The notes under the pieces: generated by a model | The model's input: the letters and a program-made list of their open reading frames with translations, nothing else | Databases searched by the model: none | What the model was told of the DNA's origin: nothing | Assembly: GCA_032718475.1 (NCBI GenBank) | Contig: JAUCBJ010001316.1 | Location: forward strand, 1-41,776 | Direction: 5' to 3' | DNA from: Nemertoderma westbladi | Taxonomy: Eukaryota > Animalia > Xenacoelomorpha | DNA length: 41,776 bases | Program-made: the position numbers and the translations under genes | In this document: positions 1 through 28,097 of the stretch, one piece after another | Position numbering within the stretch: the stretch's first letter is position 1 | Layout: every line of letters begins with the position of its first letter

Positions 1-171
1 TATTCTATAATTATCGGGGGAGGGTCATAATGACTCTGGTCGGGGATAGGGAATCAAATCTATGACAATCTGTATATCCTATTTTGTGTTTACTTTTTAT
101 TTTTTCCGTGAAGCGACGACCAAAATTTAAAATTCCTGAAAATTTCGCGGATAGAGAATTTTAAATATAAT

Positions 172-455
172 TGGTGAGCATAGTGCTACGCGAAGGCTCC
201 ATGGCAGATGTATTTTAGCTATGGACTCGTATATCCATTCTACTCTACTATAGCCAGACTGTCTTTGAGGTGCCCCGTTAGCCTTGGCGCCGCTAAATCT
301 GCATGAGGGCCGGCCATGGTCTTATATGTAGTTCTCTCTCTAGCAATATAGCCCATGTTCACAATGTTGCGCCGGAGGGGGCTCTCTCATCCACCCGATA
401 TAAGACATAGCGACACACGATCCCAGCAAGTTAGCCTCCTGCTGCGTGATCTTTT
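172..455 (+). ncRNA. Candidate structured non-coding RNA 1 of the element (unknown family)
   Basis: GC-richer island with no ORF and nested stems: 200-219/292-305, GCTATGG 218-224/CTATAGC 248-254, GGTGCC 269-274/GGCGCC 286-291, GTCTTATAT 319-327/ATATAAGAC 398-406, GCAATA 343-348/TGTTGC 365-370. Terminal hairpin 419-451 is followed by TTTT. Several non-Watson-Crick pairs are G-U on the + strand. Confidence 0.4.
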
Positions 456-720
456 ATATCCAAATAATCTCTGATGGTTGCGCATAAAAATTTTGCTTAC
501 TATTACATAATTATATTAGTATTAGGACTATTTATCCTTAATAATTATATTAGAATTATAAATGTATTTACCCCCACATTATTTATTACTATTAGGTCTA
601 TCTATTCAAGAAATTATATGTTTTTATAATATACTTTGGAAAATTAGTCGACTAAGTCATAATTTTTAAAACTTTAAATACGGGTTGAGTTATTTTATAA
701 AGTTAAGAAGAATGAACCAA

Positions 721-1040
721 TAGAAGGAGCCTGAAGTCTAATCTCTTGGTCTTTACTCACATTAACTCCCAAGGTTGCATACTATAACTATAGCCGGGGG
801 AGTCAAAGCTAGAGTGTATGCTAGAGTTAACCAAGAGCTAGGAAAAAGAATAATGCTCTTCTAGGGTCCAAACTCACATCCCTCCAATTAGAGAACTAAG
901 CAAATAATCAGCTTGAAGGTCTTAGACCCTTAATCGGAGGCATCGAGCAGCCAATGAGAGAGCAGATGCGAGTACAGTGGTAAAGCCCATCCATAGTGAG
1001 AAAACGTTGCACTAGCTCTCAAGGATCGTTATACTCACCA
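721..1040 (+). ncRNA. Candidate structured non-coding RNA 2 of the element (near-complete second copy at ~1998-2286, partial third at ~1515-1566)
   Basis: Nested stems TAGAAGGAGC 721-730/GCTCTTCTA 855-863, CTCTTGGT 743-750/ACCAAGAG 830-837, TTAACTC 762-768/GAGTTAA 824-830, GCATAC 777-782/GTATGC 816-821; then AGGGTC 863-868/GACCCT 925-930 and GCATC 940-944/GATGC 965-969. No ORF. Strand is tentative. Confidence 0.35.
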
Positions 1041-2535
1041 TTCAAATATCCCTCGCAAACCAGATTCCCCCAACATCTAAAGTAATCCACTTCAATGTAA
1101 AATATATAATGCAATATAACTCGAATATTTCTGTTTTTTAATATAAATAATAATTGTAGCATAAATTTATAATTTAACATAAATATAATGTGAAAATTCA
1201 ATATTATCAAATGACATTGCTATATAATGCATAGACATGAAAGTTGTTTGGTTTGTAATAAAGAAATGAGACAAGACAATTTATCTCGTCATATGGAAAC
1301 ATATAGAAAGGAAAAACTAATGGCTCCGTTACCAAAAAATTTAAAAAATCCGAAGATATTTTTAGTGAAGATGAAAAGAAAAAGAGAGATGAGCGTGATA
1401 TATTAAATATAAAACAGCCAATGGAAAATAAATTTCATAAAGTTGTGAATATTTTGAAAGGGATACAAAAACAGTTACCCCTAGAAAATGAGGAAAATTT
1501 GAGTGAGAAAGATGATCCATAGTGAGATAGCGTTGCACTAGCTCTCAAGGATAGTTATACTCACCATTCAAATATCCCTCGCAAACCAGAGTCCCCCAAC
1601 ATCTAAAGTATTCCACTTCAATGTAAAATATATAATGCAATATAACTCGAATATTTCTGTTTTTATAATATAAATAATAATTGTAACATAAATTTATAAT
1701 TTAACATATAAATATAAGGTGAAAATTCACTTTAACATAGAGTAACTAAACTAAACACAAAATAGGAAAAACAGAAGGTCACGGGCTCAATCCCTACTCG
1801 TATCCCGTTTTATGGGAATTATAAAAAGTAAACATAGAATAACTAGACTAAACTAAACACAAAATAGGATAAACAGATGGTCACGGGTTCAATCCCTACT
1901 CGCATCCATTATAAATCCAACACAAAATAAGTTAAACCAGGGACCGGCAGGACACATGGAAACGATTTTATTACTATGAAATACACTGAAATTTATTCTC
2001 ACATTAACTCCCAAGGTTGCATACTATAACTATAGCTGGCGGGAGAGTCAAAGCTAGAGTGTATGCTAGAGTTAACCAAGAGCTAGGAAAAAGAATAATG
2101 CTCTTCTAGGGTCCAAACTCACATCCCTCCAATTAGAAAACTAAGCAAATAATCAGCTTGAAGGTCTTAGACCCTTAATCGGAGGCATCGAGCAGCCAAT
2201 GAGAGAGCAGATGCGAGTACAGTGGTAAAGCCCATCCATAGTGAGATAGCGTTGCACTAGCTCTCAAGGATAGTTATACTCACCATTCAAATATCCCTCG
2301 CAAACCAGAGTCCCCCAACATCTAAAGTATTCCACTTCAATGTAAAATATATAATGCAATATAACTCGAATATTTCTGTTTTTATAATATAAATAATAAT
2401 TGTAACATAAATTTATAATTTAACATATAAATATAAGGTGAAAATTCACTTTAACATGGAGTAACTAAACTAAACACAAAATAGGAAAAACAGAAGGTCA
2501 CGGGCTCAATCCCTACTTGTATCCAGTTTTATGGA
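757..2535. repeat. Local segmental duplications inside the element
   Basis: 757-1200 is repeated near-identically at ~1998-2449; 989-1200 also at ~1515-1729; 1515-1815 matches ~2233-2535; 1943-1992 is a 50-bp copy of TBP-like coding sequence 3824-3873. Confidence 0.9.
1227..1522 (+). pseudogene. Degenerate C2H2 zinc-finger gene related to the pPolB N-terminal finger; frameshifted and cut by a duplication junction
   Basis: ATG at 1227 gives MHRHESCLVCNKEMRQDNLSRHMETY (cf. pPolB VSCPICDKETRSDHLSRHIKIH; last His replaced by Tyr), stop at 1404-1406 (59 aa, below the ORF-track cut-off). A shifted frame after the A-runs near 1335-1350 continues SEDIFSEDEKKKRDERDILN...EKDDP to 1522, where a duplicated block begins. 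Confidence 0.6.
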
Positions 2536-3735
2536 AAATAAACAGGAGGTCATAGGTTCAATCCCTACTCGCGACCATTATAAATCCAACACAAAATAAG
2601 TTAAACCAGGGTTCGAATCCTAATCATGAAAATATAAAAAGTAAGCATAGAATAACTAGAGTAACTAAACTAAACATAAAATAGGAAAAACATATGCTCA
2701 CAGGTTCGATCCCTACTCGCGACCATTATAAATCCAACACAAAATAAGTTAAACCAGGGTTCGAATCCTAATCATGAAAATATAAAAAGTAAACATAGAA
2801 TAACTAGAGTAACTAAACTAAACATAAAATAGGAAAAACAGAAGGTCACGGGCTCAATCCCTACTCGTATCCCGTTTTATGGAAAATAAACAGGAGGTCA
2901 TAGGTTCAATCCCTACTCGCGACCATTATAAATCCAACACAAAATAAGTTAAACCAGGGTTCGAATCCTAATCATGAAAATATAAAAAGTAAGCATAGAA
3001 TAACTAGAGTAACTAAACTAAACATAAAATAGGAAAAACATATGCTCACAGGTTCGATCCCTACTCGCGACCATTATAAATCCATCACAAAATAAGTTAA
3101 ACCAGGGTTCGAATCCTAATCATGAAAATATAAAAAGTAAACATAGAATAACTAGAGTACCTAAACTAAACATAAAATAGGATAAACAGGTGGTCACATG
3201 TTCGACCCCTTCTCGTATCCCGTTTTATAGAAAAATATAAAAAGTAAACACAAAATAGGATAAACAGATGGTCACGGGTTCAATCCCTACTCGCGACCAA
3301 TATAAAACCAACACAAAATAAGTTAAACATAGAATAACTAGAGTACCTAAACTAAACATAAAATAGGAAAACAGAAGGTCACGGGCTCAATCCCTACTCG
3401 TATCCCGTTTTATGGAAAATAAACAGGAGGTCATAGGTTCAATCCCTACTCGCGACCATTATAAATCCAACTCGAAATAAGTTAAACCAGGGTTTGAATA
3501 CTAATCATGAAAATATAAAAAGTAAACATAGAATAACTAGAGTAACTAAACTAAACATAAATTAGGAAAAACAGAAGGTCACGGGTTCAATCCCTACTCG
3601 CGTCAATTATAAATCCAACACAAAATAGGAAAAACCAGGGTTTGAGTCCTACTAATGCAATTATAAAAAGTAGGTAACACGGATGGTCACGGATTCAAAC
3701 CCTACTCACGGAAAAATAAAAACCAACACAAAATA
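2458..3735 (+). repeat. Complex tandem array of Pol III B-box / tRNA 3'-half-like motifs separated by A-rich spacers (shorter copy at 1739-1941)
   Basis: Recurrent GGTCACGGGTTCAATCCCTACTCGCGACCA-type units (~14 including the short copy) and CCAGGGTTCGAATCC-type units (~6), matching the B-box consensus GGTTCRANYCC. No A-box or D-arm upstream of the units. Confidence 0.85.
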
Positions 3736-3775
3736 AATAATATAGTAAACTTTCATGTATACCATAGTAAATAAA

Positions 3776-4291
3776 CTAATTTAATAATAAAGTTTGTAAA
3801 ATAGATAATGATTCAGGGAATTCACCGGCTGGACACATGGAAACGATTTTATTACTATGAAATACACTGAAATATGCACATCCTATATATATTCTAATCG
3901 CACAAAATAATTCGGGGGTATAGCTAATAAATATTGCTTTATTATTAATTGTATGATGTCCACATTTTTTCATTAATAATTTAAAATTAACACTAGGAAA
4001 AATAATAGTTCGTGTTTCGGTATTAAGTTTCAAATTTTGTAATTGCATCCCGATAGTTTGTTTTAAATAAAGCAATTCACTAGCTAAATTATTGCAAAGG
4101 CCTACAATTGTTACTGCGCCACTGGGAAATAGCATTATAGTTGAATCGTCACCTTTGTAGATAAACATGTTTGGTTTTAAGCAACTTTGACCTGTAATTT
4201 GCTGTGAAATTTTCTCTAGTTCAAATTTGGCAATGTTTTTTCCGGTAAACTGTTTATTGGTTATTTCTATTTTGTTGTTCAATTTCTTATT
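3776..4291 (-). CDS. Divergent TATA-binding protein (TBP)-like protein; no ATG at its 5' end, probably a spliced terminal exon
   Basis: Two TBP core repeats: ITNKQFTG..FELEKIS...TIMLFPSGAVTIVG (cf. LQNIVST..LDLKTIA...TALIFSSGKMVCTG) and ISYTPELFCAIRIY...FSVFHSNKIV (cf. SSYEPELFPGLIYR...LLIFVSGKVV). About 170 aa, the size of a TBP core. The frame opens right after TTTTATTTTTCTAG (AG at 4293-4292); the ORF-track start at 4282 is a TTG. Confidence 0.78.
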   Translation of the reverse strand, partial: NKKLNNKIEITNKQFTGKNIAKFELEKISQQITGQSCLKPNMFIYKGDDSTIMLFPSGAVTIVGLCNNLASELLYLKQTIGMQLQNLKLNTETRTIIFPSVNFKLLMKKCGHHTINNKAIFISYTPELFCAIRIYIGCAYFSVFHSNKIVSMCPAGEFPESLSILQTLLLN

Positions 4292-4305
4292 CTAGAAAAA
4301 TAAAA

Positions 4306-7300
4306 TTAAATTCTAGTAGGGGGGATTACTACTCGTTTCGCCGGTCTAACAAGCTTAGTGCTATAGTGTCCGTATGGTTTGCTGCTATATTTACTACTCC
4401 AATATGATTTCGTATCCCAGAGCGTTAGTGCCTTCTTATAGACATGACCAGTAAAAATTTGATGCTTTCTAGAAGTGAAGGTAGAGTTATAGCGGAAGAG
4501 CATTGCTTCGTTTTCAAAACAGTCTGCATAATCCTCGTGTGTTAGTTGCTTAGCGACAACCGATCTAGATACACCTTTGGCGGTTTTCTTGATTGGGGCA
4601 TCATAGGAGTGAAAACTGTAGACCTTTGGTTTAAGGAAAACCCACTGTTTATACTGCAAACCGCAGCTCTCATCTTTTACGAAGCCGAGAGCCGCTTTGT
4701 GTTTAATGGTATAGAGTGGATGTGTTGTACTGTAGTTGGAAGTATCTAGGAAACCACCCTCAAACATTGCCCGTAGAAAGGTTAGCTGTGGTGTATTAGT
4801 TACGCTTAGCATTAGAGAATCCGTGTCACCGGCTAGACAGCGAATCTGGCAATCCAGTTTTTGTTCTAGAGGCTTCAGTTTGTTGTAAAATAGGTCGTAC
4901 ATCTGTAGCTTAGATAGATCTAGTATAGTGCAACCGATGAACACGCCCTGATTTAGGCAAACAGCCTCTTTAGTGAAAGTATGACCACTCAAGTTGGGGG
5001 TAAATACAACAAACGATTCGTGATTGGGCTTGGCTAAGAGCAAATCGCATTGTTCGTCGCTATTGCATAACCTGAAAGAAACGCGGTCTCTAACCTTTTG
5101 GAGGCATTTCCCATACAAGGCATTGTTCATCAACTTATAAAATAGGACCTCGAATGGGTTATTTGCCGACTGTCTTTTATTTGTATTAAAACTAATGTAG
5201 TCCTTGAAAATATATTTTTGTGAGAAAGAGTAGACCCTATGTACTTGTGTAAGTTTAAGACCGAGCTTCAAATAGAGTTGAAGTAGCTTAATATGGATAC
5301 CGTATTCAACCTTATTAAACTGATGTAGTAGTAGCTTAGTACAGGTATCGTTGTATGGTCTACAGGTGGCCGTATCGGTGAGATTGTAATGCTCCCAAAG
5401 ATCTTCCATGTATTCGCTAAGAAAGGATTTAGGGACTGACATCTTCTCCGCTCCTAGAGGCAGATCGGCGGTCAAATCATGAATTTCTTTCGGGTAATGT
5501 AGATCAACTATGCAATAATAACCAGTATCCCCACTCGCGTCTACTGTAGCTAGGTCTATGGGGGTAGTTACGAGTTTAATATTAGCGTATGGAAGTTTCT
5601 GGCTCAGGGCGCAGCCGTAAAGGTTATTCGCATCGATGGGAATTAGATATTTCTCGGGGAGACTGGAGTCATAGTCGGGTTTATCGGGGATATTTGCGTC
5701 TACGGAATGTGTATTCAAGAATACTAGACCACCCCTAATATTTGTTTCAAAGTCCGAGTAGATGGAAGCGTCTGATAGTAATTGAATTTCTGATTGCGTG
5801 AATTTCAGCGCTGCGTCGTAAGTTAATCCAGGGGCAGTGAAGTACATTACGGGCTCGAGTCCATAATTAGTAAGACAGAGGGAACGGAACTGCTCGAAAG
5901 TATCAGCCAATAGGGTAACATCTAGAACCAAATAGCCAATCATATAGTCGAAGATTGTTAGACAGTTTAATTCATCCCAAGTAGTAAGCGCGCGCTGATA
6001 GTTTTCTGCGCTACATTGTTCCAATTTGAGATCATTATAGAAGCTTTCTAATGGGGGGAGTGTAGTTTCGTGTAGGTTTGAAATATTTTGAATATAGGAA
6101 TATGGGAATACACCCTTGTTTTTTATTGTGTTATCGCTAATGTTGGGATAGAGTTGGGTCATTTGAGCTAGTGTATGGGGTATGGCTGTTGCTAGGTTAC
6201 TGTTATTTTTAGTGAGATAGCTACTAAGATTATCTAGGCTGGCAGTCATAAACTGATAGGAATCTAGAAAATTAATGGAGATACTTTCTTTAGCGTTGGC
6301 TGTTGGTGTACTCGGATCGATTGGGAAGCTAACTTTAAGGTGAATATAAGTTTCGGTGTTTTTTGGTATTACGGTCATTTTCCAGTGTGTTCTAGAACTA
6401 TCGGTCATTCCTTCTTTTAGTAGTAAATGCATATCGAATTTCCTCAGGTTATGAAATATAATATAAAAATTATTCCGTTTTAGGGAAAGTTTCCTGTTGC
6501 AGCTGACGCAGGCAGCCCCCCGATACTCCCCGCTATAATGATCATGATCGCGGACTTTGGTGCTGAGATTGTCATTGAGGTTTAAATTATGCGAATCGGG
6601 GGTTAAATTACAGTTGCAGACGTAGCATTGTGTAGCGTTATTAAAGTCAGTTTGCTGGCTAGTAGTGAGTTGCATGGGGGCGTGTGTGTTTGTACTAGAA
6701 ATGGACCAATCGTATAACCCCCTACAATGACTTTCCATAGCAGTTAGAAAGTCGCGCATTACGTGGTTACTGCCATCGTCACGGAAAATTTGAACATCTG
6801 TTTTAGGAGGGTTAATTAATTTCTGATTTGGTACTGTATAAAAGGCTGCCGCGCTAGCTATATGTTTCTGTGGGAGTTTAATATTGTTTGTAGGTTCTAG
6901 AATAGTTTCAATGTCGGCGTATATACAGAAAGGTGGGGATAGAGTCTTATCGTACCTGTCAAATTTAACCAAGAGATTTTCGGGCATATACTCGAGTTGG
7001 CGTTTACCCGTATAGCAACGCTCTCGATGTTCTTCCAATGATTTGACAGTGTAAAAGGCTCTGAGACAGCGTTCGCAGTGCGTCTTGTTGCCGGTAGAAG
7101 TAGCTTTTGTATTTATTAATCTATCTATGTTAGTAATAGCTACGTAGTGGGCGGGGTTTTTGCTTGTGGCTTCGATAAATAATAAGTTTAGTACAGTTTT
7201 ACCGGAACAGTGCGCGCTATCTGGTTGACTTAGAATGGAGAGTTCTTCCGTATTACTCCAATAAAGAAGGTTTATGCAGTATTTAGGGTTGGCTTTCAGA

Positions 7301-8397
7301 AACTGGGGAATACCAGTTACTCTGTCCACCGGAAAACTTAAATTCGAAAAATCAAACATGTTTAGGAAAGGAGTAAACGTTGAAATTCTACTAATATTAT
7401 TTTGTTTTCTATCAATTTTCTTATAATTTGCGGCGGTCAATTTTCTATCAATTTTCTTATAATTTGCGGCGGTCAATACTGCGTATTTAAAGCATTCCCC
7501 CAGCGGGCAGTCTACGCTTACGGTACATTTTTTATTTAATAATAATTTAGAATTATTGAAGCCTTGACCCTTTAAATAGGGGTTGCGTTGGGAACGCGCA
7601 ATCTCAATAGTTATTCGCTCGATGGCTATTATGCGCCAACCTGAGCCGAGGCAGAGAAACACACTTAACAGTTGATCGATACGATTGACGGCGCCGGAAA
7701 ACCAGTTATTAAAGTCGCTATTATTCAGAATTTGATTATTGTTACCGCTAGATTTAAAACAGAAGGATTCAATTTGAAAACCCTCGCTGGTTTCACGCTC
7801 CATTACGATGTTGATTGTAAGCCAGACTCTTAAAAAAGTTCCCATGGCACTACGTAAATGGCTACTAACATGTTCTTGAATGTGTGGAAAATTTTCGTTT
7901 AATGTTAATTCTGCGTCGAGTCTTGTTTCTGCGAGGTCGTTGTTATAGGTAAACAGTCGTCCGTGTGCGCTTCCGTTGGAGGGTGGTTGAAATGGATTGT
8001 TTGGGGAAATAGAATCTCGCGAAGTTGAAGGTTCGTTATTGGAGCCGCCGCCGCCGACTTGTTCTGGAGTAGAGTTGATGGGGGATGAGTGGGAGGTAGT
8101 CGGAGTTTTGCGTTTCCGCGAAAAAAGTCGAGTGTAGCATTCATGCTCAGAAAAGGATGACAGGCTGAGCGAATCCCCGCAGCGGCAATCGGCTGGCTCG
8201 TTTACGTAACTAAATCCTGTTCCCCCCTGAGGACACGAAACAAGATGGCCAACCAGCGTCTTCTTTTCCGAAGACCAAGTCGGACAGCAGTCGCACCTAT
8301 ATTGCACGAAATGAATTTTAATGTGGCGAGATAAATGATCACTCCGTGTCTCTTTGTCGCAGATGGGGCAGCTGACTTTATTTGTTGATCTTGGCAT
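4306..8397 (-). CDS. Protein-primed family B DNA polymerase (pPolB, Polinton type) with N-terminal C2H2 zinc finger and an inserted endonuclease VII-like HNH domain
   Basis: Uninterrupted 1363-aa ORF. Exonuclease motifs YADIET, FHNLRKFD, YLVLDV; polymerase motifs DANNLYG, KLMNNALYGK, GDTDS, KPKVY, KTAKGV; KGVFPYSY typical of pPolBs. EndoVII-like CYVC...RDHDHYSGEYRGAACVSCN between ExoI and ExoII. N-terminal CPIC-x12-HIKIH finger. Confidence 0.95.
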   Translation of the reverse strand: MPRSTNKVSCPICDKETRSDHLSRHIKIHFVQYRCDCCPTWSSEKKTLVGHLVSCPQGGTGFSYVNEPADCRCGDSLSLSSFSEHECYTRLFSRKRKTPTTSHSSPINSTPEQVGGGGSNNEPSTSRDSISPNNPFQPPSNGSAHGRLFTYNNDLAETRLDAELTLNENFPHIQEHVSSHLRSAMGTFLRVWLTINIVMERETSEGFQIESFCFKSSGNNNQILNNSDFNNWFSGAVNRIDQLLSVFLCLGSGWRIIAIERITIEIARSQRNPYLKGQGFNNSKLLLNKKCTVSVDCPLGECFKYAVLTAANYKKIDRKLTAANYKKIDRKQNNISRISTFTPFLNMFDFSNLSFPVDRVTGIPQFLKANPKYCINLLYWSNTEELSILSQPDSAHCSGKTVLNLLFIEATSKNPAHYVAITNIDRLINTKATSTGNKTHCERCLRAFYTVKSLEEHRERCYTGKRQLEYMPENLLVKFDRYDKTLSPPFCIYADIETILEPTNNIKLPQKHIASAAAFYTVPNQKLINPPKTDVQIFRDDGSNHVMRDFLTAMESHCRGLYDWSISSTNTHAPMQLTTSQQTDFNNATQCYVCNCNLTPDSHNLNLNDNLSTKVRDHDHYSGEYRGAACVSCNRKLSLKRNNFYIIFHNLRKFDMHLLLKEGMTDSSRTHWKMTVIPKNTETYIHLKVSFPIDPSTPTANAKESISINFLDSYQFMTASLDNLSSYLTKNNSNLATAIPHTLAQMTQLYPNISDNTIKNKGVFPYSYIQNISNLHETTLPPLESFYNDLKLEQCSAENYQRALTTWDELNCLTIFDYMIGYLVLDVTLLADTFEQFRSLCLTNYGLEPVMYFTAPGLTYDAALKFTQSEIQLLSDASIYSDFETNIRGGLVFLNTHSVDANIPDKPDYDSSLPEKYLIPIDANNLYGCALSQKLPYANIKLVTTPIDLATVDASGDTGYYCIVDLHYPKEIHDLTADLPLGAEKMSVPKSFLSEYMEDLWEHYNLTDTATCRPYNDTCTKLLLHQFNKVEYGIHIKLLQLYLKLGLKLTQVHRVYSFSQKYIFKDYISFNTNKRQSANNPFEVLFYKLMNNALYGKCLQKVRDRVSFRLCNSDEQCDLLLAKPNHESFVVFTPNLSGHTFTKEAVCLNQGVFIGCTILDLSKLQMYDLFYNKLKPLEQKLDCQIRCLAGDTDSLMLSVTNTPQLTFLRAMFEGGFLDTSNYSTTHPLYTIKHKAALGFVKDESCGLQYKQWVFLKPKVYSFHSYDAPIKKTAKGVSRSVVAKQLTHEDYADCFENEAMLFRYNSTFTSRKHQIFTGHVYKKALTLWDTKSYWSSKYSSKPYGHYSTKLVRPAKRVVIPPTRI
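7405..7476. repeat. Perfect 36-bp in-frame tandem duplication inside pPolB (LTAANYKKIDRK x2)
   Basis: TTTTCTATCAATTTTCTTATAATTTGCGGCGGTCAA at 7405-7440 and 7441-7476. Confidence 0.95.
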
Positions 8398-8404
8398 CTT
8401 GAAT

Positions 8405-9106
8405 CTAGAAAAATAAGTTGATTATTTGTAAAAAATAAAAAATACTGTATACTTGCTAAAAATAAAGTAAAACAGTAGGTATTAATCGGTTACTAGGCAA
8501 CAATACTGTGTTTGTACAGTTAGGCCTATTGCTGTATTGTAACAATCAGTCAGTGAAACATAAAGCAGGCAGTCGGCAGTGTCTAGTGTGGAAGTGTTAG
8601 TGTACCAGCGGTTAGATAGTGGCGATAGCCAAGACACAAAAGCGATGCCAGTTATTATTCGTGGAAAGAGGGTCTATAAACAGCAGTCAGTCAGTGCAGT
8701 AGTGCTAGTGATATAGTCTGCCAGAAGTCAGACGTACCGGTAGCGTTAACCAATAGAAATCAACGATAGGCTTAGCTATTCGCTGTGTGAGAACTCAGTT
8801 AGTCAGTAGGATATATAATGAAAACTGCAGTAATCATTGTTGTTCAGTAGGGTCTATATCGTTACTATGATGGCATTAGGCTAACTCGAATGATGCGGTA
8901 CCGGTAGTTGGGTAGACAAGCAGATAGACAGATGTAGGCCTATTGATCGAATGCTTCGATCACGGTTTAGGCTATCGGTACCACCGCAGTCTGACAGTAA
9001 TTAATAATGAGCCTACTGCAATACTGTTGTACCGGTAGACATTAAATGTAAATTGTTTGCTAGCGGCGTCGAAAGTATAGCTAGATGGAAGGCAGATTTT
9101 ACTTAC
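8405..9106 (-). other. Putative 5'-UTR intron of the pPolB transcript
   Basis: Minus-strand donor ACC|GTAAGT at 9106-9101 and acceptor CTTATTTTTCTAG (AG 8406-8405) 7 nt before the pPolB ATG. The upstream segment 9107-9334 has no minus-strand ATG and starts at an Inr-like TCAGTC with TATTTAA ~28 nt upstream. Confidence 0.45.
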
Positions 9107-9328
9107 GGTGTTAGTAGATATTCACGGAAAGAAGAAGTTTGGAAGTTCGGTGGCGATGAGGAAGTTGGTTGACGTGGACGACGAGAGAGTTTATCAACCG
9201 ATAGACGGAATGGTATCGGAAATTAGAAATATTGAAATATTACGCGGCGGATACGCGGAAAGTTTGTTGTCGACGATGAGCGATAACGCGGCGAAATGAC
9301 AATAATACAACTCTACAAGTGGGTTGTT

Positions 9329-9600
9329 GACTGATGATAACAAATAAATATTCTTAAATAAATAATATTAAATTCGAAAACAAAATAATGGTAAATGATG
9401 TTAATTGTAAATTGCAATTGAAATAATGACCTAATATATTAGTGGGGACGTATTAAATAGCAATTCGGTTAGTAAGGGAGGCCCTTGTCTCTTAAATGGG
9501 CCAATCAGAGCGCAGCAGCAGAAATGAAGCCCGATGATTGGCTGTTCGCGCAAAAGCGGTTACCAAGGCAACTTCTCCTGTTGATTCTATATTAGAAACC
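9329..9600. promoter_or_regulatory. Putative bidirectional promoter of the element
   Basis: Oppositely oriented CCAAT boxes (GGCCAATCAG ~9499-9508, GATTGGCTG ~9536-9544), minus-strand TATA-like/Inr-like pair at ~9360/9334, and a + strand TATA-like CTATATTA near 9587 just before a structured island. Confidence 0.35.
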
Positions 9601-10025
9601 CCTGTAGGCATCTTGACTAATTATGTTGAGTTGGCTGTATAACAGAAGCAGGTCTGGTGCAAAGGAAAGGGATTAGTAGAGAGGAATGCGTGATTAGTGG
9701 CGCTTCATTGTTATGATAGGGGCTGCCTGGATATAGGAAAGGGGCAAAGCGACGCCGGCTATGCCGAGAACAATGGAGGGCCGCTTGAGCATTAGCCTTG
9801 GGCGACATAGGGATTTGCTGTAGTCAAGGCCGCCTGGCGCCATTGAATAATGAAGACAAAGGGGCTGCTAACAGACGGGACCACTCATTTATAATTGCCT
9901 GGGGGGTATACGTATAGATTCACTGCCTGTTGTATCTAGTTAATGAATAATGAGGACAGAGGAGGGGCCCCCCGCCGATGAACCTAGTTGATAGTTGCCA
10001 GTAGGGAGCCGTATACCATAGCCAT
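9600..10025 (+). ncRNA. Candidate structured non-coding RNA 3 of the element, divergent from pPolB
   Basis: GC-richer island: AGTGGCGC 9696-9703/GCGCCATT 9837-9844 enclosing CTTCATTGTT 9703-9712/AACAATGGAG 9769-9778 and GCCTTG 9795-9800/CAAGGC 9825-9830; GGTATACG 9905-9912/CGTATACC 10010-10017. G-U wobbles favour the + strand. No credible ORF. Confidence 0.35.
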
Positions 10026-10263
10026 TATAAAGTTAAAAATAGATATTATGTCATAGTGATCTCGTTGGTAATATAAAAACTAATTAATCTAAAAATAGAA
10101 ATCAATGTATAAAGTAAAAGTAATACAAATATTTAATATAAAATAAAGTACAAATGAATAAATAAAGTAAAATAGAATACAAATAATTAATTAAAATTAG
10201 GTACAAATAAATAGATAAATTGAAAATAACAAAGTTAGAGAAGATGTTAATTTTCAGATAATA

Positions 10264-10276
10264 CGCCCTCTAGCGG
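10264..10276 (-). promoter_or_regulatory. CTCF-like motif in the element's subterminal region
   Basis: Minus strand CCGCTAGAGGGCG closely fits the CTCF core consensus; motif match only. Confidence 0.35.
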
Positions 10277-10602
10277 CAGACTATGGAACTGCAGGCGGTT
10301 GGATATAGGTAAGAGTAATTAGTAATCAGAGCTGTCACGGGGTGGGGGGCAGGGGCGCTTGGATACAACTATCATTAATATGCTGTTGCTTGGTTAAAGC
10401 TAATTGGGGGGTCAAAGGTCAACGATAAAGCTGTCTGGAGTAATTAGTTACCAGTAAGGGAGCTGTATACCCATAAAGTACAAATGAATAATTAATTTAG
10501 AATTAAATACGAATAAAATAAAATGCAAATAATTAATTAAAATTAAATATAAATAAATAAGTATTAATGAATAAAAGAGCTGCGGTGTCACTTATGACAC
10601 CC

Positions 10603-10920
10603 TCTTGAGCCGGCTCTGCGACAGTTGGACAACACTGATTGACCCATTGTGTGTCAGGGCGCTAATCAGTCTGATTAATTAGGATAATCAATTAAACCCT
10701 AATTAGGAGTCATATGACACCTGTTAGGGTTTAATTGTACTAATTAATTGATGACACCTGTCAATTAGGGTCTAATTAGCCTAATTGGGAGGTGTCACCC
10801 AGACAGTCTGGCGCCAATGACACCCAATGACACCCATAGGGTGATAATTGGGTGTCATATGACACCCAATGGGTGTCAGTGGGGTCCAACTGTCGCAGAG
10901 CCGGCCAAGACCCTACTACT
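10603..10920. repeat. Terminal palindromic region of the Polinton-like element
   Basis: Perfect 22-bp inverted repeat GCCGGCTCTGCGACAGTTGGAC 10609-10630 / 10884-10905, extending imperfectly inward and outward. Interior is rich in TGACACC/GGTGTCA and TAATTA motifs; ends ACTACT. Confidence 0.85.
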
Positions 10921-11049
10921 CCTAAATGCTCCTATATAGCCTAAATGCTCCTATATGGCCTAAATGCTCCTATATGGCCTAAATGCTCATATATGGCATA
11001 AATGCTCTTATATGGCCTAAATGCTCCTATATGGCCTAAATGCTCCTAA
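10921..11049. repeat. 19-bp minisatellite (CCTAAATGCTCCTATATGG, ~7 copies) abutting the element end
   Basis: Direct tandem copies seen. Confidence 0.92.
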
Positions 11050-11864
11050 TTTGCTCAGTCGTTCGTTAGAGGGTGAAATATCTGAAATCTGCGAATATGT
11101 ACTATAGACTAGTCTTTAGGTCGTCTTTCTGAGCCCACTGATCTTTATGCAGTTCTTCAGTCTACCGCTAAATGGCGAAATGTCTAAAAGTGAGAAAACC
11201 TTGAAATCCTTCCCCATTTATTTGTTGCTTACAAGGACTACTATACTACTATACTATACTATACTGTAGTATAGTAGTCCTTGGTTGCTTATCCTTCAAG
11301 GTGAGACTGCAGGATATGTAAGCCTTAGACGACAAAATTTCAGTTAAGTGAAATATTTTGAGAAATAAATTTGTTGTGCTTTTGTTCTTGTTCTCTTTGA
11401 AAAAAGATTCCTCGTGTCCACTTGCATACTGTAATTGCACTAATACTCCACTCTCTGACCCACTGGACATGGACAACCATCTCTGAGTGAAGATTATGTG
11501 TGTGTGCTTTGTTCCATCTGTGTGGTGCTGATACGAGTTTCAAAGAAGGGAAGCCGAAACCCCTGGTCATATCTCGCTTGCTGCAAAATTATTCAACCGA
11601 ATAATGTTGAATCGCCGAAACAGAATCGCCGACAGAAAGACTCTCGCTGCGTGGGAATCAGAATGGGTTTCGAAAAGTAGAGCTACAGTAACTTTTGAGC
11701 CAATTCTCGCACTTAAGAACTATTATCAATTAGACATTTAGATTCAATTTATATTCAATTTAGATTTCAATTAGACATTTGGCTGTCATTTCAAGGCCTT
11801 CGATTCTGTGTCACGCCCACGCGTGTTGAGAATTCTTCAGGCATATGGGATTCCCAATATTAAG

Positions 11865-14214: not shown

Positions 14215-15030
14215 ATTGGATTACTTCCAGGTCAGTCCATAGAGATAATGTTCTTTTATTGTTTTTATACACTCGTGAATAATTATTGTAAAAGTTAATA
14301 TTTTCCTATTAGTTACCTAAGGACTATTTGTGGTACAAGTTTCCTTAGTTCACTCAGTTACTATAACAATGGGTTATCATTTAGTCGATAGCGATAGCGT
14401 TGAACAATCCCGCCTGTAAAGCAATGCATACAAGTTAGCATGTAGCAATTTGTTTTGAAAATACTTTGCAGTCTCAAGAAATATACCGTAATACTGCCAT
14501 CACTGCTCAAAATATTATTTTTTTCTGCGGGAAGACTAATTATCTTTAGGTTGTATATCAAATAGAGTGGCGCACAACAATTAATGATATAACTCTTATC
14601 ATTCAATTATATTAATTATGAATTGTATGCCTTAAAATTATTTGGACCCTTCTACAGTACTTATTATAAGAGCAATAGACGCTAAGAATAGGCCTTATAT
14701 AATAATTTAACGAAAACACACCATTCTAAATACTGCCCCTTGCGCACATCTGGGGACATTAGTTTTTGTATTGTTTTTCTGCAGGCCATACGGTATGTAG
14801 TTGCAATGGACATTAAGAAAATTTTTTATATATTGACGAAAACACACCGTTCTAAATACTTCCCCTTGCGCATATCTGGGGACATTAGTTTTTGTAGTGC
14901 TGGGAGTATTATACTGTATTAGGTCCTACGTTTAGTTGCAATGAATGTTAAGAATATTTAATATATTAGCAAAAACATACCATTGAAAATACTGTCCTTT
15001 ACGCACATCTGGGGACATTGGTTTTTGTAT
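14215..15030 (+). repeat. Left arm of a long inverted repeat, containing ~121-bp tandem subunits
   Basis: Reverse complement of ~21345-22340 (e.g. TTTATTGTTTTTATACACTCGTGAATAATT vs AATTATTCACGAGTGTATAAAAACAATAAA); subunit core GCGCACATCTGGGGACATTAGTTTTTGTA x3. Confidence 0.85.
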
Positions 15031-15205
15031 AGGTGAGTCCTATATATGTCCTGGAATATAGTGTCGTCATTCAGGTCCCTGCCCCCCCCCCCCCCCCCCC
15101 CCCCCCAGGGTTTAGGGTTTTTTCTAAATATGTTAGGGAAATTTATAAATGAAAATAGCGACTTCTAAATTTTTATACTTGTTTAGAAATTGGTCACATA
15201 GAGAC

Positions 15206-15578: not shown

Positions 15579-18500
15579 TCAAACAGTATATTGTTTCCCA
15601 CTTCGCAATGTTTTTATTACTTGACCTTGACCTTGAGTCTGTCCCGGTTCCCGCGTTGCTGGATACTGAGATTGTCCCTGCGAAATAGGATCAACTGAAG
15701 TACCTTCCTGTGTGGATCCTTGGGTCGGTTCCATGATGTCACCACGTCCTGTTGCTAGTGGTAGACCGCCGGTTGGTACTCTTTTACCACTTCCGACACT
15801 GGGACCTGCTCCAGCGTGACGGCTCATCGTAGTAGTTGGATTCGAATTGGTAATGGATGTGGTACCTTCTTTGTCATTCCATGGGTTGTATCGACTCCTT
15901 ATTTGGTTAACATTGCGTTTGACCAAAATATCACCAACTTTAACCATGTATACTCGCGATCCAATCCTTTTTATTATTCGTCCCGGGAGCCACTTTACAA
16001 TTATTTGCCCCCTACCCGGTCGACTATAGTTTTTTATCCAGACCGCTTCACCGATCTCGAATTTTCCACTTGTTTCGTCGCTTTTGTTACTCGTCACTGG
16101 ATATTCCAATAACCGTTCTAACCGAGTCTTTGTAGGATATTGGAAAATTGATTCGTTCGGGGTTTTTCCTCTTGGTGTGTACAGTGAATTTCTATCCTGC
16201 ATTAGGAAATTACTGATCTTATCTTGTATAGTATCGTTTTCGATACTGAACTTTTGTTTCTTCATCGAGTTCTTTATACTTTGCACAGTTCTTTCAGCAG
16301 CACCATTTGAAGTTGGTGAATAGAATGCGGAACTCCAATGAGTTATACCGTTGTCTGTAAAGAAACTTTCTATTTCTGTTGAAATGAACTGTGGTCCATT
16401 ATCACTAAATATTATCGCCGGAATTCCTGTAAATGCAAACATATTTTTCATTTCTGTTATAATTGTAGAAGACTTTGCATTCTTTAATACTCTGGCATCT
16501 TTCCAACCAGAATACGTATCAACCATACCTAAAATCGTATGTTCTTCGAAATCTGCTAAATCTGTGTGAATTCGTTCAAATGCTGCCTTAGCTGTTGGTA
16601 ATGACACATATTCTTGAGGTGGACTGTTGGCGAATTGTTGACATGGTGTACACTCTTTGATGAATAACTTTATATCATCTACTATACCAGGCCACCAACA
16701 GATGTCTGCTGCTTTTGTGAGCATTCTTCTTTCTCCGATGTGTGCGGAATGTAGTTCCTTCATTACATGTGCCTGTAAGCTGGATGGTATTATAATTCGA
16801 TTGCCACGCATAATTATTCCTTCTTTGATTGTAAGTTCAAATTCAATAGCTTTGTAATGACGTAACTCAGGATTATTTGTTTGTATCTTTTCGCCATATT
16901 CGACTGTGCGTTTCAAATGACGTAATCCCGGATCAGCCTCAGTAGCATCTTGTAATCCTTGTTTGGTTAAAGGAATGTCTACTATGTTTTGTTCCTGTTG
17001 TAAGTCCATAGCTCGAATGTCTATATCTGATTTATCCTTGTAAATATTATCTTTGGTTGCAGGTGTAAGTCTTGATAATGCATCAGCAATATTCTCTTCT
17101 GAACTAATAGCTGTAACTGTGTAGTTATGAGCTGCTAGCTCAACAGCCCAGTGTTGTAACCTTGAAACAGTCGTAGCAGGAAGCGCTTTTAATGGACCAA
17201 ATATTCGTTTGAGTGGTCTGTTATCGGTAACGATTGTAAACTTATGACCGATTAAGAATTGCTGGAATTTTCTTGTACCAAACATTATAGCAAGTGCTTC
17301 CCTGTCGAGCTGGCTATATTTTCTCTGATGCGTATCAAGTGTAGCTGATGCAAAAGCAACTGGTGTGAATTCACTTTTCTCATTAATCTGCCCCAATATG
17401 GCAGATACAGCCTTTTCAGACGCATCGGTGATTAATTCCGTTTTCATCGATGGATTAAAGTGAACCAGTAGTGTACAATTCGATATGGCCTCCTTCACAT
17501 TATTGTATGCATTGTTGGCTTCTTTTGACCATTCAAATGGTGTATCTTTCTGTAGTAATTTGTACAATGGGTTGGATATCTCCGCGTATTTGTGTACATA
17601 CTTCCGTAAGTAATTCATAAAACCCAATGCACTTTGTAATTCTTTCTTTGTGGATGGAGGTTTCATATCCCTGACTGCTTGTACCTTCTTTGGATCTGGC
17701 AAAAATCCTTTGCTTGTAATTATATGCCCACAGAATTCCACTTCTGACTTCACAAATGAACATTTCTTCATTCCTATAGTAAGTCCAGCTTCCCTGAGTG
17801 CTGTAAACACTGTCTGGAGATCCCGTAAGTGCTCTTCCATATTGTTAGAAGCTATTAGAAACTCGTCCATGTATGATACTGAAATGTATTTGCTCAATGT
17901 ACAATGAACAACTTTAAGACATTTGGCTGCAGCGGGAGTGATTCCATATGGCAACCTTGTAGGTTTTAACAATCCTAATGGTGTCGCTAATGTAAGCAGC
18001 GCTTGGCTTTCTTTATCGATTGGCAATTGGTTGTAAGCTTGTGCCATATCCAACTTCGTAAAAATTGTCTTGCCCTGCAGTTTGGCGGACATTTCCTCTT
18101 GAGACATTAAAGGGAAATAATCTTCTATGAGGTACTGATTTACAGTGCTCTTATAGTCCCCACAGATTCTGACGGATCCATCGTTTTTAGGCATAATTAC
18201 TAATGGTGTAGCCCAATCAATGTTTTCTCCCTCATCTGTATGTACTAGACGTCCTTCTTTTATGTCAATCTTTAATTGTTCTATGACTTTATCCTTGTAT
18301 GCATGTGGGACTGATCTTGAATGAAGGAATTTGGGATTTGTGTTTGATGTTTTGATCCTAATTTGTAAAGGTTCTCCCTTATAACATCCCACACCAGTTA
18401 GAACCTCTGTAAATTCTTGTAACATGGTTTGTAACCGATATGGTAAATCTTTCGTGTCGAACTGAGTATTTTGGGTTTTAATATCCTGTTGTAACAACTC

Positions 18501-19241
18501 ATCAATACTAGTTCCGCGGTGCACTAAATGTTGTAGCCAATATAGACCAAATAATGGTGAATTTTCGGTTTCACTCTCCTCTGCAATAATTAGCGGCATA
18601 TTTTCTAACTTTGCCACATTTGTACCTGGGAATTCAACCACAACGTAAATGACTCCCTTGATCCTGGCAGTTCCTTTGCAGTATCCACGTAATTTTGAAG
18701 GACAATCATGTAATTGTATATCTTGGAACTGTTCAATGTATTTGTTGTATGGTAATATGCTATGCTTAGCACCAGGATCGAATTCCATTTGTATTTTCTT
18801 ATTATTTATAAGAATATCTAGTTGAATCGAATTAACTTTGGGTAAAGTCACTGTATTAATCTCAACTTCATTGCCTAAATCTTGTAAAATATCTGTATGT
18901 TTCATGAATAAATCGTCATTGTGCTCTCCTTCATCTATGTCAACCATTCCAACTGAGCCTCTTTGACTGTTTGGCTTAAACTGATTAGATCCGGTTGCAT
19001 TACGTTTTTTAAAACATGCCGTTTCAACATGTCCCTTAGCTTTGCAATATCGGCATATGATATGTTCTGGCATTCTGCATTCTGTAATTTTATGGCCTTG
19101 TTTTCCACAACGGTAGCAAGTAATCTGCCTACTTTGACTAACCTGCCGTGGTTGTGAAGTATATGAACTTGAACTACCTCTGCTAGTTCCTCCACGGTAT
19201 CCTACACGACCCCGGCTGTTTCCAAACAAGATGTATAACAT
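15579..19241 (-). CDS. Gypsy gag(NC)-pol polyprotein: two zinc knuckles, aspartic protease, reverse transcriptase, RNase H, integrase; probably defective
   Basis: CYRCGKQGHKITEC and CRYCKAKGHVETAC; protease FDPGA; RT WATPLV..KNDGSVRICGDYK, KLDMAQAYNQL, LPYG, YMDE; RNase H TDAS, REALA, TDNRPL; integrase HSAH..CTPC, IHTD, SDNGPQF, SNGAAERTV. YMDE and DPG deviate from catalytic YxDD and D[TS]G. Confidence 0.93.
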   Translation of the reverse strand: MLYILFGNSRGRVGYRGGTSRGSSSSYTSQPRQVSQSRQITCYRCGKQGHKITECRMPEHIICRYCKAKGHVETACFKKRNATGSNQFKPNSQRGSVGMVDIDEGEHNDDLFMKHTDILQDLGNEVEINTVTLPKVNSIQLDILINNKKIQMEFDPGAKHSILPYNKYIEQFQDIQLHDCPSKLRGYCKGTARIKGVIYVVVEFPGTNVAKLENMPLIIAEESETENSPLFGLYWLQHLVHRGTSIDELLQQDIKTQNTQFDTKDLPYRLQTMLQEFTEVLTGVGCYKGEPLQIRIKTSNTNPKFLHSRSVPHAYKDKVIEQLKIDIKEGRLVHTDEGENIDWATPLVIMPKNDGSVRICGDYKSTVNQYLIEDYFPLMSQEEMSAKLQGKTIFTKLDMAQAYNQLPIDKESQALLTLATPLGLLKPTRLPYGITPAAAKCLKVVHCTLSKYISVSYMDEFLIASNNMEEHLRDLQTVFTALREAGLTIGMKKCSFVKSEVEFCGHIITSKGFLPDPKKVQAVRDMKPPSTKKELQSALGFMNYLRKYVHKYAEISNPLYKLLQKDTPFEWSKEANNAYNNVKEAISNCTLLVHFNPSMKTELITDASEKAVSAILGQINEKSEFTPVAFASATLDTHQRKYSQLDREALAIMFGTRKFQQFLIGHKFTIVTDNRPLKRIFGPLKALPATTVSRLQHWAVELAAHNYTVTAISSEENIADALSRLTPATKDNIYKDKSDIDIRAMDLQQEQNIVDIPLTKQGLQDATEADPGLRHLKRTVEYGEKIQTNNPELRHYKAIEFELTIKEGIIMRGNRIIIPSSLQAHVMKELHSAHIGERRMLTKAADICWWPGIVDDIKLFIKECTPCQQFANSPPQEYVSLPTAKAAFERIHTDLADFEEHTILGMVDTYSGWKDARVLKNAKSSTIITEMKNMFAFTGIPAIIFSDNGPQFISTEIESFFTDNGITHWSSAFYSPTSNGAAERTVQSIKNSMKKQKFSIENDTIQDKISNFLMQDRNSLYTPRGKTPNESIFQYPTKTRLERLLEYPVTSNKSDETSGKFEIGEAVWIKNYSRPGRGQIIVKWLPGRIIKRIGSRVYMVKVGDILVKRNVNQIRSRYNPWNDKEGTTSITNSNPTTTMSRHAGAGPSVGSGKRVPTGGLPLATGRGDIMEPTQGSTQEGTSVDPISQGQSQYPATREPGQTQGQGQVIKTLRSGKQYTV

Positions 19242-21344: not shown

Positions 21345-22340
21345 CATTCATTGCAACTATACGTAGGGTTTATTGTAATACTCCCAGCACTACAAAAACT
21401 AATGTCCCCAGATGTGCGCAAGGGACAGTATTTAGAATGGTGTGTTTTCGTCAATATATAAAAACATTTCTTAATGTCCATTGCAACTACATACCGTATG
21501 GTCTGCAGAAAAACAATACAAAAACTAATGTCCCCAGATGTGCGCAAGGGGCAGTATTTAGAATGGTGTGTTTTCGTCAATATATAAAAACATTTCTTAA
21601 TGTCCATTGCAACTACATACCGTATGGTCTGCAGAAAAACAATACAAAAACTAATGTCCCCAGATGTGCGCAAGGGACAGTATTTGGAACGGTGTGTTCT
21701 TGTTAATTTATTATATATTCTTAACGTCCATTGCAACTAACTACCTACATAAATAGAACGTAGAGCCTAATATAATACTCTCTGCACTACAAAACCAATG
21801 CCCCCAGATGTGCGCAAGGGACAGTACACTATTTAGAATGGGTGTGTTTTCGTTAATTTATTATAATGTCTATTTCCACTACAGTACGTAGAAGGGTCTA
21901 AAAAATTAAAGGTATAAAATTAATGATATACTGTAATTAATATAATAGAATGATGTGAATGTAATTTGAATGATAAGAGTTATATCATATATCGTTGTGC
22001 TCCACTTTGTTTGTTTAAACATGAATTTAATTAGTGCCCCCGCAGAAAAAAAGTAGCAGTGGCCGTATTACGATATTTGTGCATATATTTTTTAAAAAAT
22101 TTCTACATGCTTGTATGCATAGTGCATGCGGGATTGTTTAGCACTATCGACTAAGTGAAAATCCATTGTTATAGTAACTGAGGAAAGTTGCACCACAAGG
22201 GGTGCTTAGGTAACTCATAAGGAAATATTAACTTTTACAATTATTCACGAGTGTATAAAAACAATAAAAAAACGTTATCTAGGGATTGCCTGAGCTGCAT
22301 TGTCTCAACGACAGACCTGACTAACTAATCCATAAATAAT
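21345..22340 (-). repeat. Right arm of the long inverted repeat, with ~121-bp tandem subunits (4 cores)
   Basis: TACAAAAACTAATGTCCCCAGATGTGCGCAAGGG-type cores near 21391, 21517, 21643, 21788; outer part is the reverse complement of 14215-14700. Confidence 0.85.
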
Positions 22341-27899: not shown

Positions 27900-28097
27900 A
27901 TGGATCTGTTCTGCTGCGAGACGGATGTCGGATCCCCAGTTCGATCCATCGAGGACCCTGTGCTTCTCCGAGACTATGTCCTCAACAACATGTTGAAACA
28001 AGAAGAAGATTTCCAACCTTCCTGCAACTACTTCACTCACATACAAACAGACATACAACCCTATATGCGTTACGAAGTTGCACACTGGATGTTGGAG
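27900..28097 (+). CDS. CycD: G1/S-specific cyclin D, coding exon 1
   Basis: MDLFCCE (LxCxE Rb-binding motif), DPVLL..VLNNML..E, YF..IQTDIQPYMR..VAHWMLE; phase-0 donor GAG|GTAGGT at 28097/28098. Confidence 0.93.

What the first reader, a model, noticed from the sequence alone, without database searches (positions are those of the whole stretch)
172..10920. Candidate new system: Polinton-like element with its own TBP, a Pol III B-box array and several structured RNAs
Seen: within one pPolB element are a TBP-fold ORF, ~20 clustered B-boxes directly downstream of it, and three ORF-free islands that fold into nested stems (one ends hairpin+TTTT). Established: B-boxes bind TFIIIC, which recruits TBP-containing TFIIIB; adenoviruses, pPolB relatives of Polintons, make Pol III VA RNAs; TBP is not part of the canonical Polinton gene set (pPolB, integrase, ATPase, protease, capsids). 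Inference: the element may redirect host Pol III/Pol II initiation with a private TBP and make its own ncRNAs. I do not know of a description of this combination but cannot check the literature.
Basis: partly seen in the sequence, partly recalled or inferred. Interest (0 to 1): 0.88.

Follow-up and report, generated by a model that had tools for sequence, protein, structure and literature searches.

The report
TBP-carrying Polinton with B-box array
This is one end of a repeated, virus-like Polinton element whose lineage carries its own TATA-binding-protein gene, likely used to transcribe its own genes, beside a tRNA-like B-box array found only in this family that likely acts as a chromatin barrier; the proposed structured RNAs are not supported.

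Summary
Bases 1-10920 are the right part of a multi-copy Polinton: intact pPolB, an (ACT)2 end at 10920, and contig depth collapsing just beyond it. The TBP-like exon is real: AlphaFold pLDDT 90, TM 0.75-0.78 to TBP. It belongs to a family of at least 113 proteins. All 9 related loci of one pPolB clade that keep 3 or more Polinton core genes carry it; 0 of 11 such loci outside the clade do. The array is real: 20 B-box units, no A-box, B-box positions changing less than their flanks, TATAAA 23-24 nt on in 10 of 17 distinct units. Two 'RNA islands' fold no better than shuffles. The third is a branched DNA foldback at the terminus (z -18.6). Verdict: separate parts, not one Pol III/ncRNA system. 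TBP in adintovirus-like elements is already a figure label in print; its clade-wide conservation and the B-box array were not found in my searches.

The parts
1..10920 (.). Right-hand part of a multi-copy Polinton (Maverick); the left end lies beyond the window
   Evidence: Summed contig depth 2000-6800 in most interior bins against 48 at 11201-11600 in X1; it falls from 22,887 to 76 across 10932/10933; no inverted partner of the terminus elsewhere in the window
4306..8397 (-). Protein-primed DNA polymerase B, 1363 aa, open frame, with an N-terminal C2H2 finger and an endonuclease-VII-like insert
   Evidence: PF03175 E 8e-18; 417 homologues at E<=1e-20, best 37% identity
3776..4291 (-). TBP-like coding exon (171 codons; first Met only at codon 42, so the start is predicted to come from an upstream exon)
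4292..4305 (-). Predicted splice acceptor of the TBP-like exon, directly after the pPolB stop; the same 12-mer precedes the pPolB start (8405-8416)
   Evidence: The 12-mer occurs twice in the window, both times on the minus strand at these places; no RNA data
1784..3702 (+). B-box array: 20 tRNA-T-arm-like units at 52-107 nt spacing (two displaced units at 1784 and 1886), no A-box, TATAAA at +23/24 in 10 of 17 distinct units, T4 in five others
37..105 (-). Degenerate inverted copy of the array monomer at the window edge
10603..10910 (.). Branched terminal DNA foldback (54-bp outer arms, inner palindromes, 11 TGACAC/GTGTCA sites at 10585-10873)
   Evidence: DNA MFE -119.4 against -41 for shuffles, z -18.6; 16 other 341-nt windows give -13 to -44
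10915..10920 (+). Polinton end motif (ACT)2
   Evidence: Sequence; motif as described in PMC8097293; depth drop
10264..10276 (-). CTCF-like motif inside the subterminal region, in a short stretch shared with other repeats
   Evidence: Only exact match to a recalled consensus in the window; depth spike with loose ends at 10219-10298
9101..9541 (-). Predicted Pol II promoter and non-coding leader of the pPolB/TBP unit: two CCAAT boxes (9501-9506, 9536-9541), donor at 9106, no ATG between 9610 and 9043
   Evidence: motif-level only
1215..1522 (+). Small zinc-finger-like ORF, split into two overlapping frames in this copy, converging on the TBP gene across the array
   Evidence: 10 of 16 identities to an ORF of L001 (E 0.009)
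761..1076 (-). Three mini-exons (38, 18, 77 nt) with TAG acceptors and GTGAGT donors, predicted to give a 43-codon hydrophobic ORF; duplicated at 2003-2321 (44 codons)
172..460 (.). GC-richer non-coding island 1; not more structured than shuffles
9680..10030 (.). GC-richer non-coding island 2; not more structured than shuffles
10921..11048 (+). 19-bp minisatellite flanking the element (outside it)

Best explanation
The region is the right end of a multi-copy Polinton whose pPolB clade carries a conserved TBP-fold gene, which likely serves as a viral promoter factor for the element's own Pol II genes, while the B-box array is a separate feature of this family, likely derived from a tRNA or SINE 3' half, that likely binds host TFIIIC as a chromatin barrier rather than making RNA. 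Shown: the element, its end, the TBP fold, the gene's confinement to one pPolB clade, the array and its motif-biased conservation, the lack of A-boxes, and the terminal foldback. Inferred, step 1 (about 0.6): the 171-residue core, made from a spliced leader downstream of pPolB, bends AT-rich DNA and brings in TFIIB-type factors, as viral TBP mimics do for late genes. The family keeps the second-repeat YEPELF stirrup, three Phe and the first Asn. Step 2 (about 0.5): tandem B-boxes without A-boxes hold TFIIIC between two convergent genes and limit silencing or read-through, like ETC sites. Step 3 (about 0.55): the foldback works as DNA at the replication/integration end, leaving the 10 terminal bases single-stranded. 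The parts share an element but do not depend on each other.
For: Clade: 12 of 105 related loci carry the gene, and all 12 pass Pfam's TBP cut-off with two repeats. Of 20 loci with 3 or more of 5 core markers, 9 of 9 in the clade have it and 0 of 11 outside do. The split has FastTree support 1.0 and SH-aLRT 100 with the window inside; three partial pPolBs were placed by BLAST. 113 homologues; fold. Array: parsimony changes per column are 0.88 at the 8 fixed B-box positions, 3.0 at the 3 degenerate ones and 2.15 in flanks, p 0.002; no A-box upstream of any unit. The array region is covered in three DNA runs from three studies, with length variants. The TBP-carrying relative L030 has two tRNA genes between pPolB and the next gene. 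ETC sites are B-boxes bound by TFIIIC without TFIIIB or Pol III and act as barriers (PMC12409998).
Against: There are no RNA, binding or ChIP data. No shared TATA-like motif was seen upstream of capsid, protease, ATPase or integrase starts in TBP-carrying loci (TATAWA in 1 of 8 MCP upstream regions), so the late-promoter role has no sequence support here. The window's protein is the most divergent member. It departs from the family at four positions that are 96-99% conserved (125, 138, 147, 154), including the first acidic stirrup residue, and no start codon precedes its first strand, so this copy may be altered or decaying. Array units were picked by their B-box match, which inflates conservation; they descend from a few founders; and the C/G variation fits CpG decay. 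Four of 6 listed variants in the foldback's inner arm break pairs. No integrase, ATPase, capsid or protease gene lies in 1-10920. The loci inside and outside the clade came largely from different collections and seed patterns.
Confidence: 0.58

Rival explanations
1. Coupled system: TFIIIC on the B-boxes and the element's TBP on the interleaved TATAAA boxes assemble a private TFIIIB-like complex that makes short Pol III RNAs ending at the T4 runs.
For: TATAAA sits at a fixed +23/24 from the B-box in 10 of 17 distinct units (14 sites on + against 1 on -, shuffle mean 2.4). T4 runs follow five other units. The array starts about 75 bp from the TBP stop. L030 has internal tRNA genes.
Against: 0 of 12 TBP-carrying relatives have an array. 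No A-box. No Rfam match and no fold signal in the array or in two islands. The TATA counts come from duplicated units in AT-rich DNA. None of 107 viral stretches with three close B-boxes encodes pPolB or this TBP.
Confidence: 0.13
2. The array is a neutral minisatellite amplified from a captured tRNA/SINE fragment, and this family's TBP-like gene is a decaying remnant of the clade gene.
For: Units keep tRNA-like variable-loop bases upstream of the B-box (compare the tRNA gene quoted in PMC11811891). The array length varies between copies. The surrounding 756-2611 region is a patchwork of duplications. The protein lacks several family-invariant residues and an in-exon start.
Against: Changes fall on the degenerate B-box positions and avoid the fixed ones. 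The frame is open over 171 codons at about 22% identity to relatives and folds well. A deletion variant seen in two studies loses most of pPolB but keeps the TBP exon (joint 4298/7564).
Confidence: 0.2
3. The TBP-like protein is not a transcription initiator but a decoy for host TBP partners (TFIIB, BRF1, NC2, Mot1), or an origin-bending factor for protein-primed replication.
For: The family lacks the first-repeat stirrup, and the second Asn is replaced in most members. No common promoter motif was found. The gene follows pPolB closely in 5 of 12 relatives and directly here.
Against: Three Phe, the first Asn and the YEPELF motif are 92-100% conserved in 104 homologues, as expected for DNA bending plus TFIIB-type contact. 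In other relatives the gene lies next to the ATPase/capsid block.
Confidence: 0.09

Closest known systems
Polintons/Mavericks (adintoviruses)
   Same: pPolB, (ACT)2 end motif (PMC8097293, passages), multi-copy; relatives have rve integrase with chromodomain and A32/IVa2-like ATPase, plus weak capsid and protease hits
   Different: The TBP gene is conserved across one pPolB clade. This family has predicted spliced expression, a B-box array and a branched terminal foldback. Core morphogenetic genes are not in the visible part.
MELD viruses labelled 'TBP' in Starrett et al. (PMC8502044 Fig. 5 legend; bioRxiv 10.1101/697771)
   Same: A TBP-like gene in an element with adintovirus-like PolB
   Different: There it is a legend entry for non-animal datasets (legends and section 3.4 read, figure not seen); no clade-wide distribution, structure or cis-elements are discussed in what I read.
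Herpesvirus vTBP (KSHV ORF24 and orthologues) and giant-virus TBPs
   Same: Viral TBP-fold protein; ORF24 needs TBP-like Phe residues and recruits host Pol II to late promoters (PMC12529657, abstract); BFVD matches to giant-virus TBPs
   Different: A bare ~170-aa core with no Pol II-binding extension, no known partner complex, and no late-promoter motif found here.
ETC (extra TFIIIC) sites and tRNA-gene barriers
   Same: B-boxes without A-boxes, clustered; a CTCF-like site also lies in the element (PMC12409998, passages)
   Different: Here they are carried in tandem by a mobile viral element and interleaved with TATAAA; occupancy is untested.
Adenovirus VA RNA genes
   Same: B-box motifs in a pPolB element (VA RNA features recalled)
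   Different: No A-box, no stable fold, no Rfam match; 20 short units rather than one or two genes.

Membership tests
Polinton/Maverick | Protein-primed family B polymerase | tested here: met
   PF03175 E 8e-18; nests among pPolBs of full Polintons
Polinton/Maverick | (AGT)2//(ACT)2 or (AG)3//(CT)3 end motif | tested here: met
   ACTACT at 10915-10920 at the depth drop; right end only
Polinton/Maverick | [quoted passage not shown] | not testable with these tools
   The left end is outside the window and no genome is held
Polinton/Maverick | Integrase, ATPase, major and minor capsid, protease | tested here: inconclusive
   None in 1-10920 by local profiles; present in clade relatives; the missing left part could hold them
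TBP (PF00352) | Two-repeat saddle fold | tested here: met
   pLDDT 90.4, TM 0.75-0.78 to solved TBPs; the model leans on the relatives' alignment (single-sequence model pLDDT 29.7)
TBP (PF00352) | Pfam gathering score | tested here: not met
   Window protein 18.4 against 22.9 bits; 12 of 12 relatives pass
TBP (PF00352) | Four intercalating Phe and two central Asn | tested here: not met
   Three Phe (55, 129, 144) and Asn12 kept; the first-repeat stirrup is not alignable and the second Asn is replaced (residue roles recalled)
TBP (PF00352) | Binds TATA DNA and TFIIB/BRF | not testable with these tools
   Needs binding assays
Type 2 Pol III promoter / VA-RNA-like gene | B-box | tested here: met
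   12 exact and 7 one-mismatch units (consensus recalled)
Type 2 Pol III promoter / VA-RNA-like gene | A-box 30-90 nt upstream | tested here: not met
   The only + strand A-box match in 1-3800 is at 1363, over 400 nt from the first B-box
Type 2 Pol III promoter / VA-RNA-like gene | Stable structured transcript | tested here: not met
   no tRNA found in the window
ETC / TFIIIC barrier | B-boxes without A-box | tested here: met
ETC / TFIIIC barrier | TFIIIC bound, TFIIIB and Pol III absent, barrier activity | not testable with these tools
   Needs ChIP and a reporter assay

The most novel reading that the evidence does not exclude
A Polinton lineage runs its own transcription programme with a minimal viral TBP, and this family has added a TFIIIC-loading B-box/TATA platform, so that host TFIIIC and the viral TBP together insulate or transcribe the element. 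It also has a self-folding terminus that recreates an open origin without the other end.
Probability: 0.17. Interest if true: 0.85.

Novelty: new variant of a known kind. Interest (0 to 1): 0.52.

Why it matters
How Polintons, a likely source of many eukaryotic DNA viruses, control their genes is essentially unstudied. A TBP-fold gene kept across a whole pPolB clade gives a concrete, small, testable candidate for a Polinton transcription factor and a marker for that clade. It parallels herpesvirus vTBP and giant-virus TBP. A transposon-borne tandem B-box array, if bound by TFIIIC, would show a mobile virus carrying its own barrier against host silencing and seeding such sites across the genome.

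Tried and rejected
Structured ncRNAs in islands 1 and 2: rejected on z-scores. Of 154 windows of 150 nt on two strands, the best island-2 value was -2.7, and pPolB coding DNA reached -2.9. Of 9 listed variants in island 2, 4 break predicted pairs, 2 keep them as wobbles and 3 are unpaired. Covariation could not be run: no related locus shares the non-coding DNA (one AT-rich 38-nt match only). Direct searches with the window's TBP exon found nothing; relatives were found only through pPolB neighbourhoods. A single-sequence fold failed. Viral-contig scans with the TBP alignment, the window pPolB alone and a clade capsid found nothing. A scan for three close B-boxes gave 107 viral stretches, none with pPolB or TBP. 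A late-promoter motif search was negative. PC4-like neighbours of TBP in relatives were suspected by eye; Pfam gave no such hit. No relative showed a comparable terminal foldback, but few include termini. No RNA holder was listed; run X5 gave only short low-depth pieces and was not used. The protein atlas gave no answer. Earlier findings of this scan: none. No complex prediction was run, because the relevant host partners are not available as references.
Full report
Setting. The window is eukaryotic host DNA, likely animal (inferred): it has a cyclin N-terminal exon at 27900, a Gypsy polyprotein at 15579-19241 and minisatellites. No whole genome is held. Evidence on copies comes from public DNA runs, kept as contigs, whose summed depth is no copy number; the best holder may be the source sample.

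The element and its limits. pPolB is an open 1363-aa frame at 4306-8397 on the minus strand. Depth in X1 is about 2000-6800 in most bins from 1 to 10000 and 48 at 11201-11600. At finer scale it falls from 22,887 (10862-10932) to 76 (10933-11003), and X2 to X4 behave alike. The sequence ends there in ACTACT, the commonest Maverick 3' end motif (PMC8097293, passages), followed by a 19-bp minisatellite. So 10920 is the right end. Depth stays high to base 1 in X1 and X2 (zero at 1-400 in the patchy run X4), and no inverted partner of the terminus lies elsewhere in the window. The left part is therefore inside the repeat family and the left end is out of view. No integrase, ATPase, capsid or protease gene was found in 1-10920, so autonomy is open. 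The last 280 bp have ten to tens of times the interior depth, which suggests non-autonomous derivatives.

The TBP-like gene is real. The frame 3776-4291 begins right after an acceptor-like 12-mer that follows the pPolB stop. The same 12-mer precedes the pPolB start and occurs nowhere else in the window. The first Met is codon 42, so a full protein needs an upstream exon; which one is unresolved. The protein alone is nearly invisible. Among ORFs of 105 loci fetched around related pPolBs, 12 match it. All 12 pass Pfam's TBP cut-off with two repeats, and their profile, built without the window, scores it at E 2e-19. The alignment finds 113 proteins and solved TBPs down to E 3e-28. The model has pLDDT 90.4 and matches TBPs at TM 0.75-0.78 and giant-virus TBPs. 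Across 104 homologues of at least 140 aa, Asn12, Phe55, Phe129, Phe144 and the YEPELF motif are 92-100% conserved. The first-repeat stirrup does not align to cellular TBP and the second Asn is mostly replaced (residue roles recalled). The window's copy departs from the family at four near-invariant positions.

It marks a clade. The relatives are complete Polintons. Of the 105 loci, 20 hold 3 or more of five core markers; 9 of these have the TBP gene and 11 do not. On pPolB trees (71 sequences, FastTree; 27 sequences, IQ-TREE; midpoint-rooted) the TBP-carrying loci and the window fall on one side of a split with support 1.0 and 100, and the TBP-less near-complete loci on the other. L073, L076 and L021 were too short for the tree and were placed by best BLAST hits, consistently. 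Clade members without the gene are contigs of 8.4 kb or less with at most one core marker. This is one gain, not many, and the two sides came largely from different collections. The window sits on a long branch.

The array is real but local. Twenty units at 1784-3702 carry a B-box on the + strand: 12 exact, 7 with one mismatch, 1 with two. The rest of the window has 0 exact and 3 one-mismatch matches. They form a higher-order repeat of a ~50-bp monomer resembling a tRNA variable loop and T arm (compare the gene quoted in PMC11811891, passages). On 17 distinct units, fixed B-box positions change 0.88 times per column, degenerate ones 3.0 and flanks 2.15 (p 0.002). Units were chosen by the motif, and CpG decay explains part of this. 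There is no A-box. TATAAA follows at +23/24 in 10 of 17 units and a T4 run in five others. The array is covered in X1, X2 and X4, with joints showing length variants and one that skips 1515-2676. None of the 12 TBP-carrying relatives has an array: 22 near-matches in 138 kb, and 9 loci have at least 2.7 kb downstream of the gene. One, L030, holds two tRNA genes inside the element. None of 107 viral stretches with three close B-boxes encodes pPolB or this TBP.

The islands. Islands 1 and 2 fold no better than shuffles on the strands tested (both strands in 150-nt windows). They reach no Rfam threshold, and 4 of 6 variants at paired sites of island 2 break pairs. The hairpin-plus-TTTT at 452-455 also reads as a minus-strand TATA box. 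Island 3 is the terminus itself: a branched foldback with z -18.6 as DNA, leaving ten terminal bases unpaired, symmetric on both strands. It is best read as a DNA end structure. Four of six listed low-share variants in its inner arm break pairs, which argues against strict selection on every pair.

Mechanism. Most likely three separate devices. (1) A clade-wide minimal TBP that acts on the element's own Pol II promoters, by analogy with herpesvirus vTBP (PMC12529657, abstract). This is inferred, and no shared promoter motif was found. (2) A family-specific tandem of B-boxes that holds TFIIIC as a barrier between convergent genes, like ETC sites (PMC12409998, passages). A CTCF-like site at 10264-10276 on the other side of the pPolB-TBP unit fits this, but it rests on a recalled consensus and one match. 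(3) A folded terminus for protein-primed replication or integration. The coupled TBP-TFIIIC-Pol III reading keeps some support from the TATAAA spacing and L030's tRNA genes, but fails the co-occurrence test.

What is in print. Searches: polinton with TATA-binding protein; TBP, pPolB, polinton, maverick, adintovirus; polinto with TATA; polinton with RNA polymerase III and tRNA; B-box, TFIIIC, insulator and transposon terms; hairpin and TIR terms. The only hit for TBP in such elements that I read is a legend entry in PMC8502044 and its preprint (passages and section 3.4; figures not seen). PMC10675990, listed, was seen only as a search listing. Term searches of the main text found no TBP in PMC11161782, PMC10748475, PMC8097293, PMC12220804, 10.64898/2026.06.19.733378, 10.64898/2026.10.13.758929 and 10.1101/2025.02.07.637071, nor in the one held supplement of PMC11131425. 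Preprint supplements, figures, Repbase entries and subscription papers were not seen and could annotate the gene.

Verdict. A new variant of a known kind. Observation partly confirmed, interpretation partly supported, interest 0.52. The solid new points are the TBP-marked Polinton clade and a motif-conserved B-box array in a multi-copy family. The ncRNA claim and the single-system claim do not hold on present evidence.

Noticed in passing
window 4298/7564: A DNA joint in runs of two studies skips most of pPolB but keeps its N-terminal 278 codons and the TBP-like exon: a deletion subfamily that retains the TBP gene.
   Followed up: partly
window 761-1076 and 2003-2321 (-): Three mini-exons with clean splice signals predicted to form a 43-44 codon hydrophobic ORF; the two copies differ by one in-frame codon.
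   Followed up: partly
window 401-800, 1201-1600 and 10010-10920: These stretches have several-fold higher contig depth than the interior, suggesting an abundant non-autonomous derivative made of the terminus and the small zinc-finger gene region.
   Followed up: no
window 37-105 (-): An inverted degenerate array monomer at the window edge may begin a second, outward-facing array bracketing 105-1514.
   Followed up: no
window 10219-10298: A short stretch with a CTCF-like motif is shared with other repeat families (depth spike, loose ends on both sides).
   Followed up: partly
window 1943-1992: A 50-bp copy of the 3' part of the TBP-like ORF (3824-3873) sits in the duplicated left region.
   Followed up: no
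window 11232-11283: A separate palindrome of TAC/GTA-rich repeats outside the element, z about -5 to -7.
   Followed up: no
L030 10000-10227: A divergent pair of tRNA genes (Cys and a degenerate one) inside a TBP-carrying Polinton, next to a palindromic insert at 10521-11039.
   Followed up: partly
L030 11223-11687, L059 4147-4623, L073 3449-4009, L080 4561-5130: A similar ~160-190 aa ORF with an exonuclease-like start (by eye) recurs in TBP-carrying Polintons, often right after TBP; no Pfam family.
   Followed up: partly
L109, L114, L120, L131, L163, L166, L175: Viral contigs with 9-14 B-box-like motifs within 2 kb and no tRNA called; unrelated to pPolB elements, nature unexamined.
   Followed up: no
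window 14243-15032 and 21376-22280: Long inverted repeats bracket the Gypsy element (LTRs at 15298 and 19224), suggesting insertion into a DNA transposon or foldback element.
   Followed up: no
window 27900-31052: Host cyclin-like exons interrupted by a 21-bp minisatellite of about 190 copies at 30657-34623.
   Followed up: no
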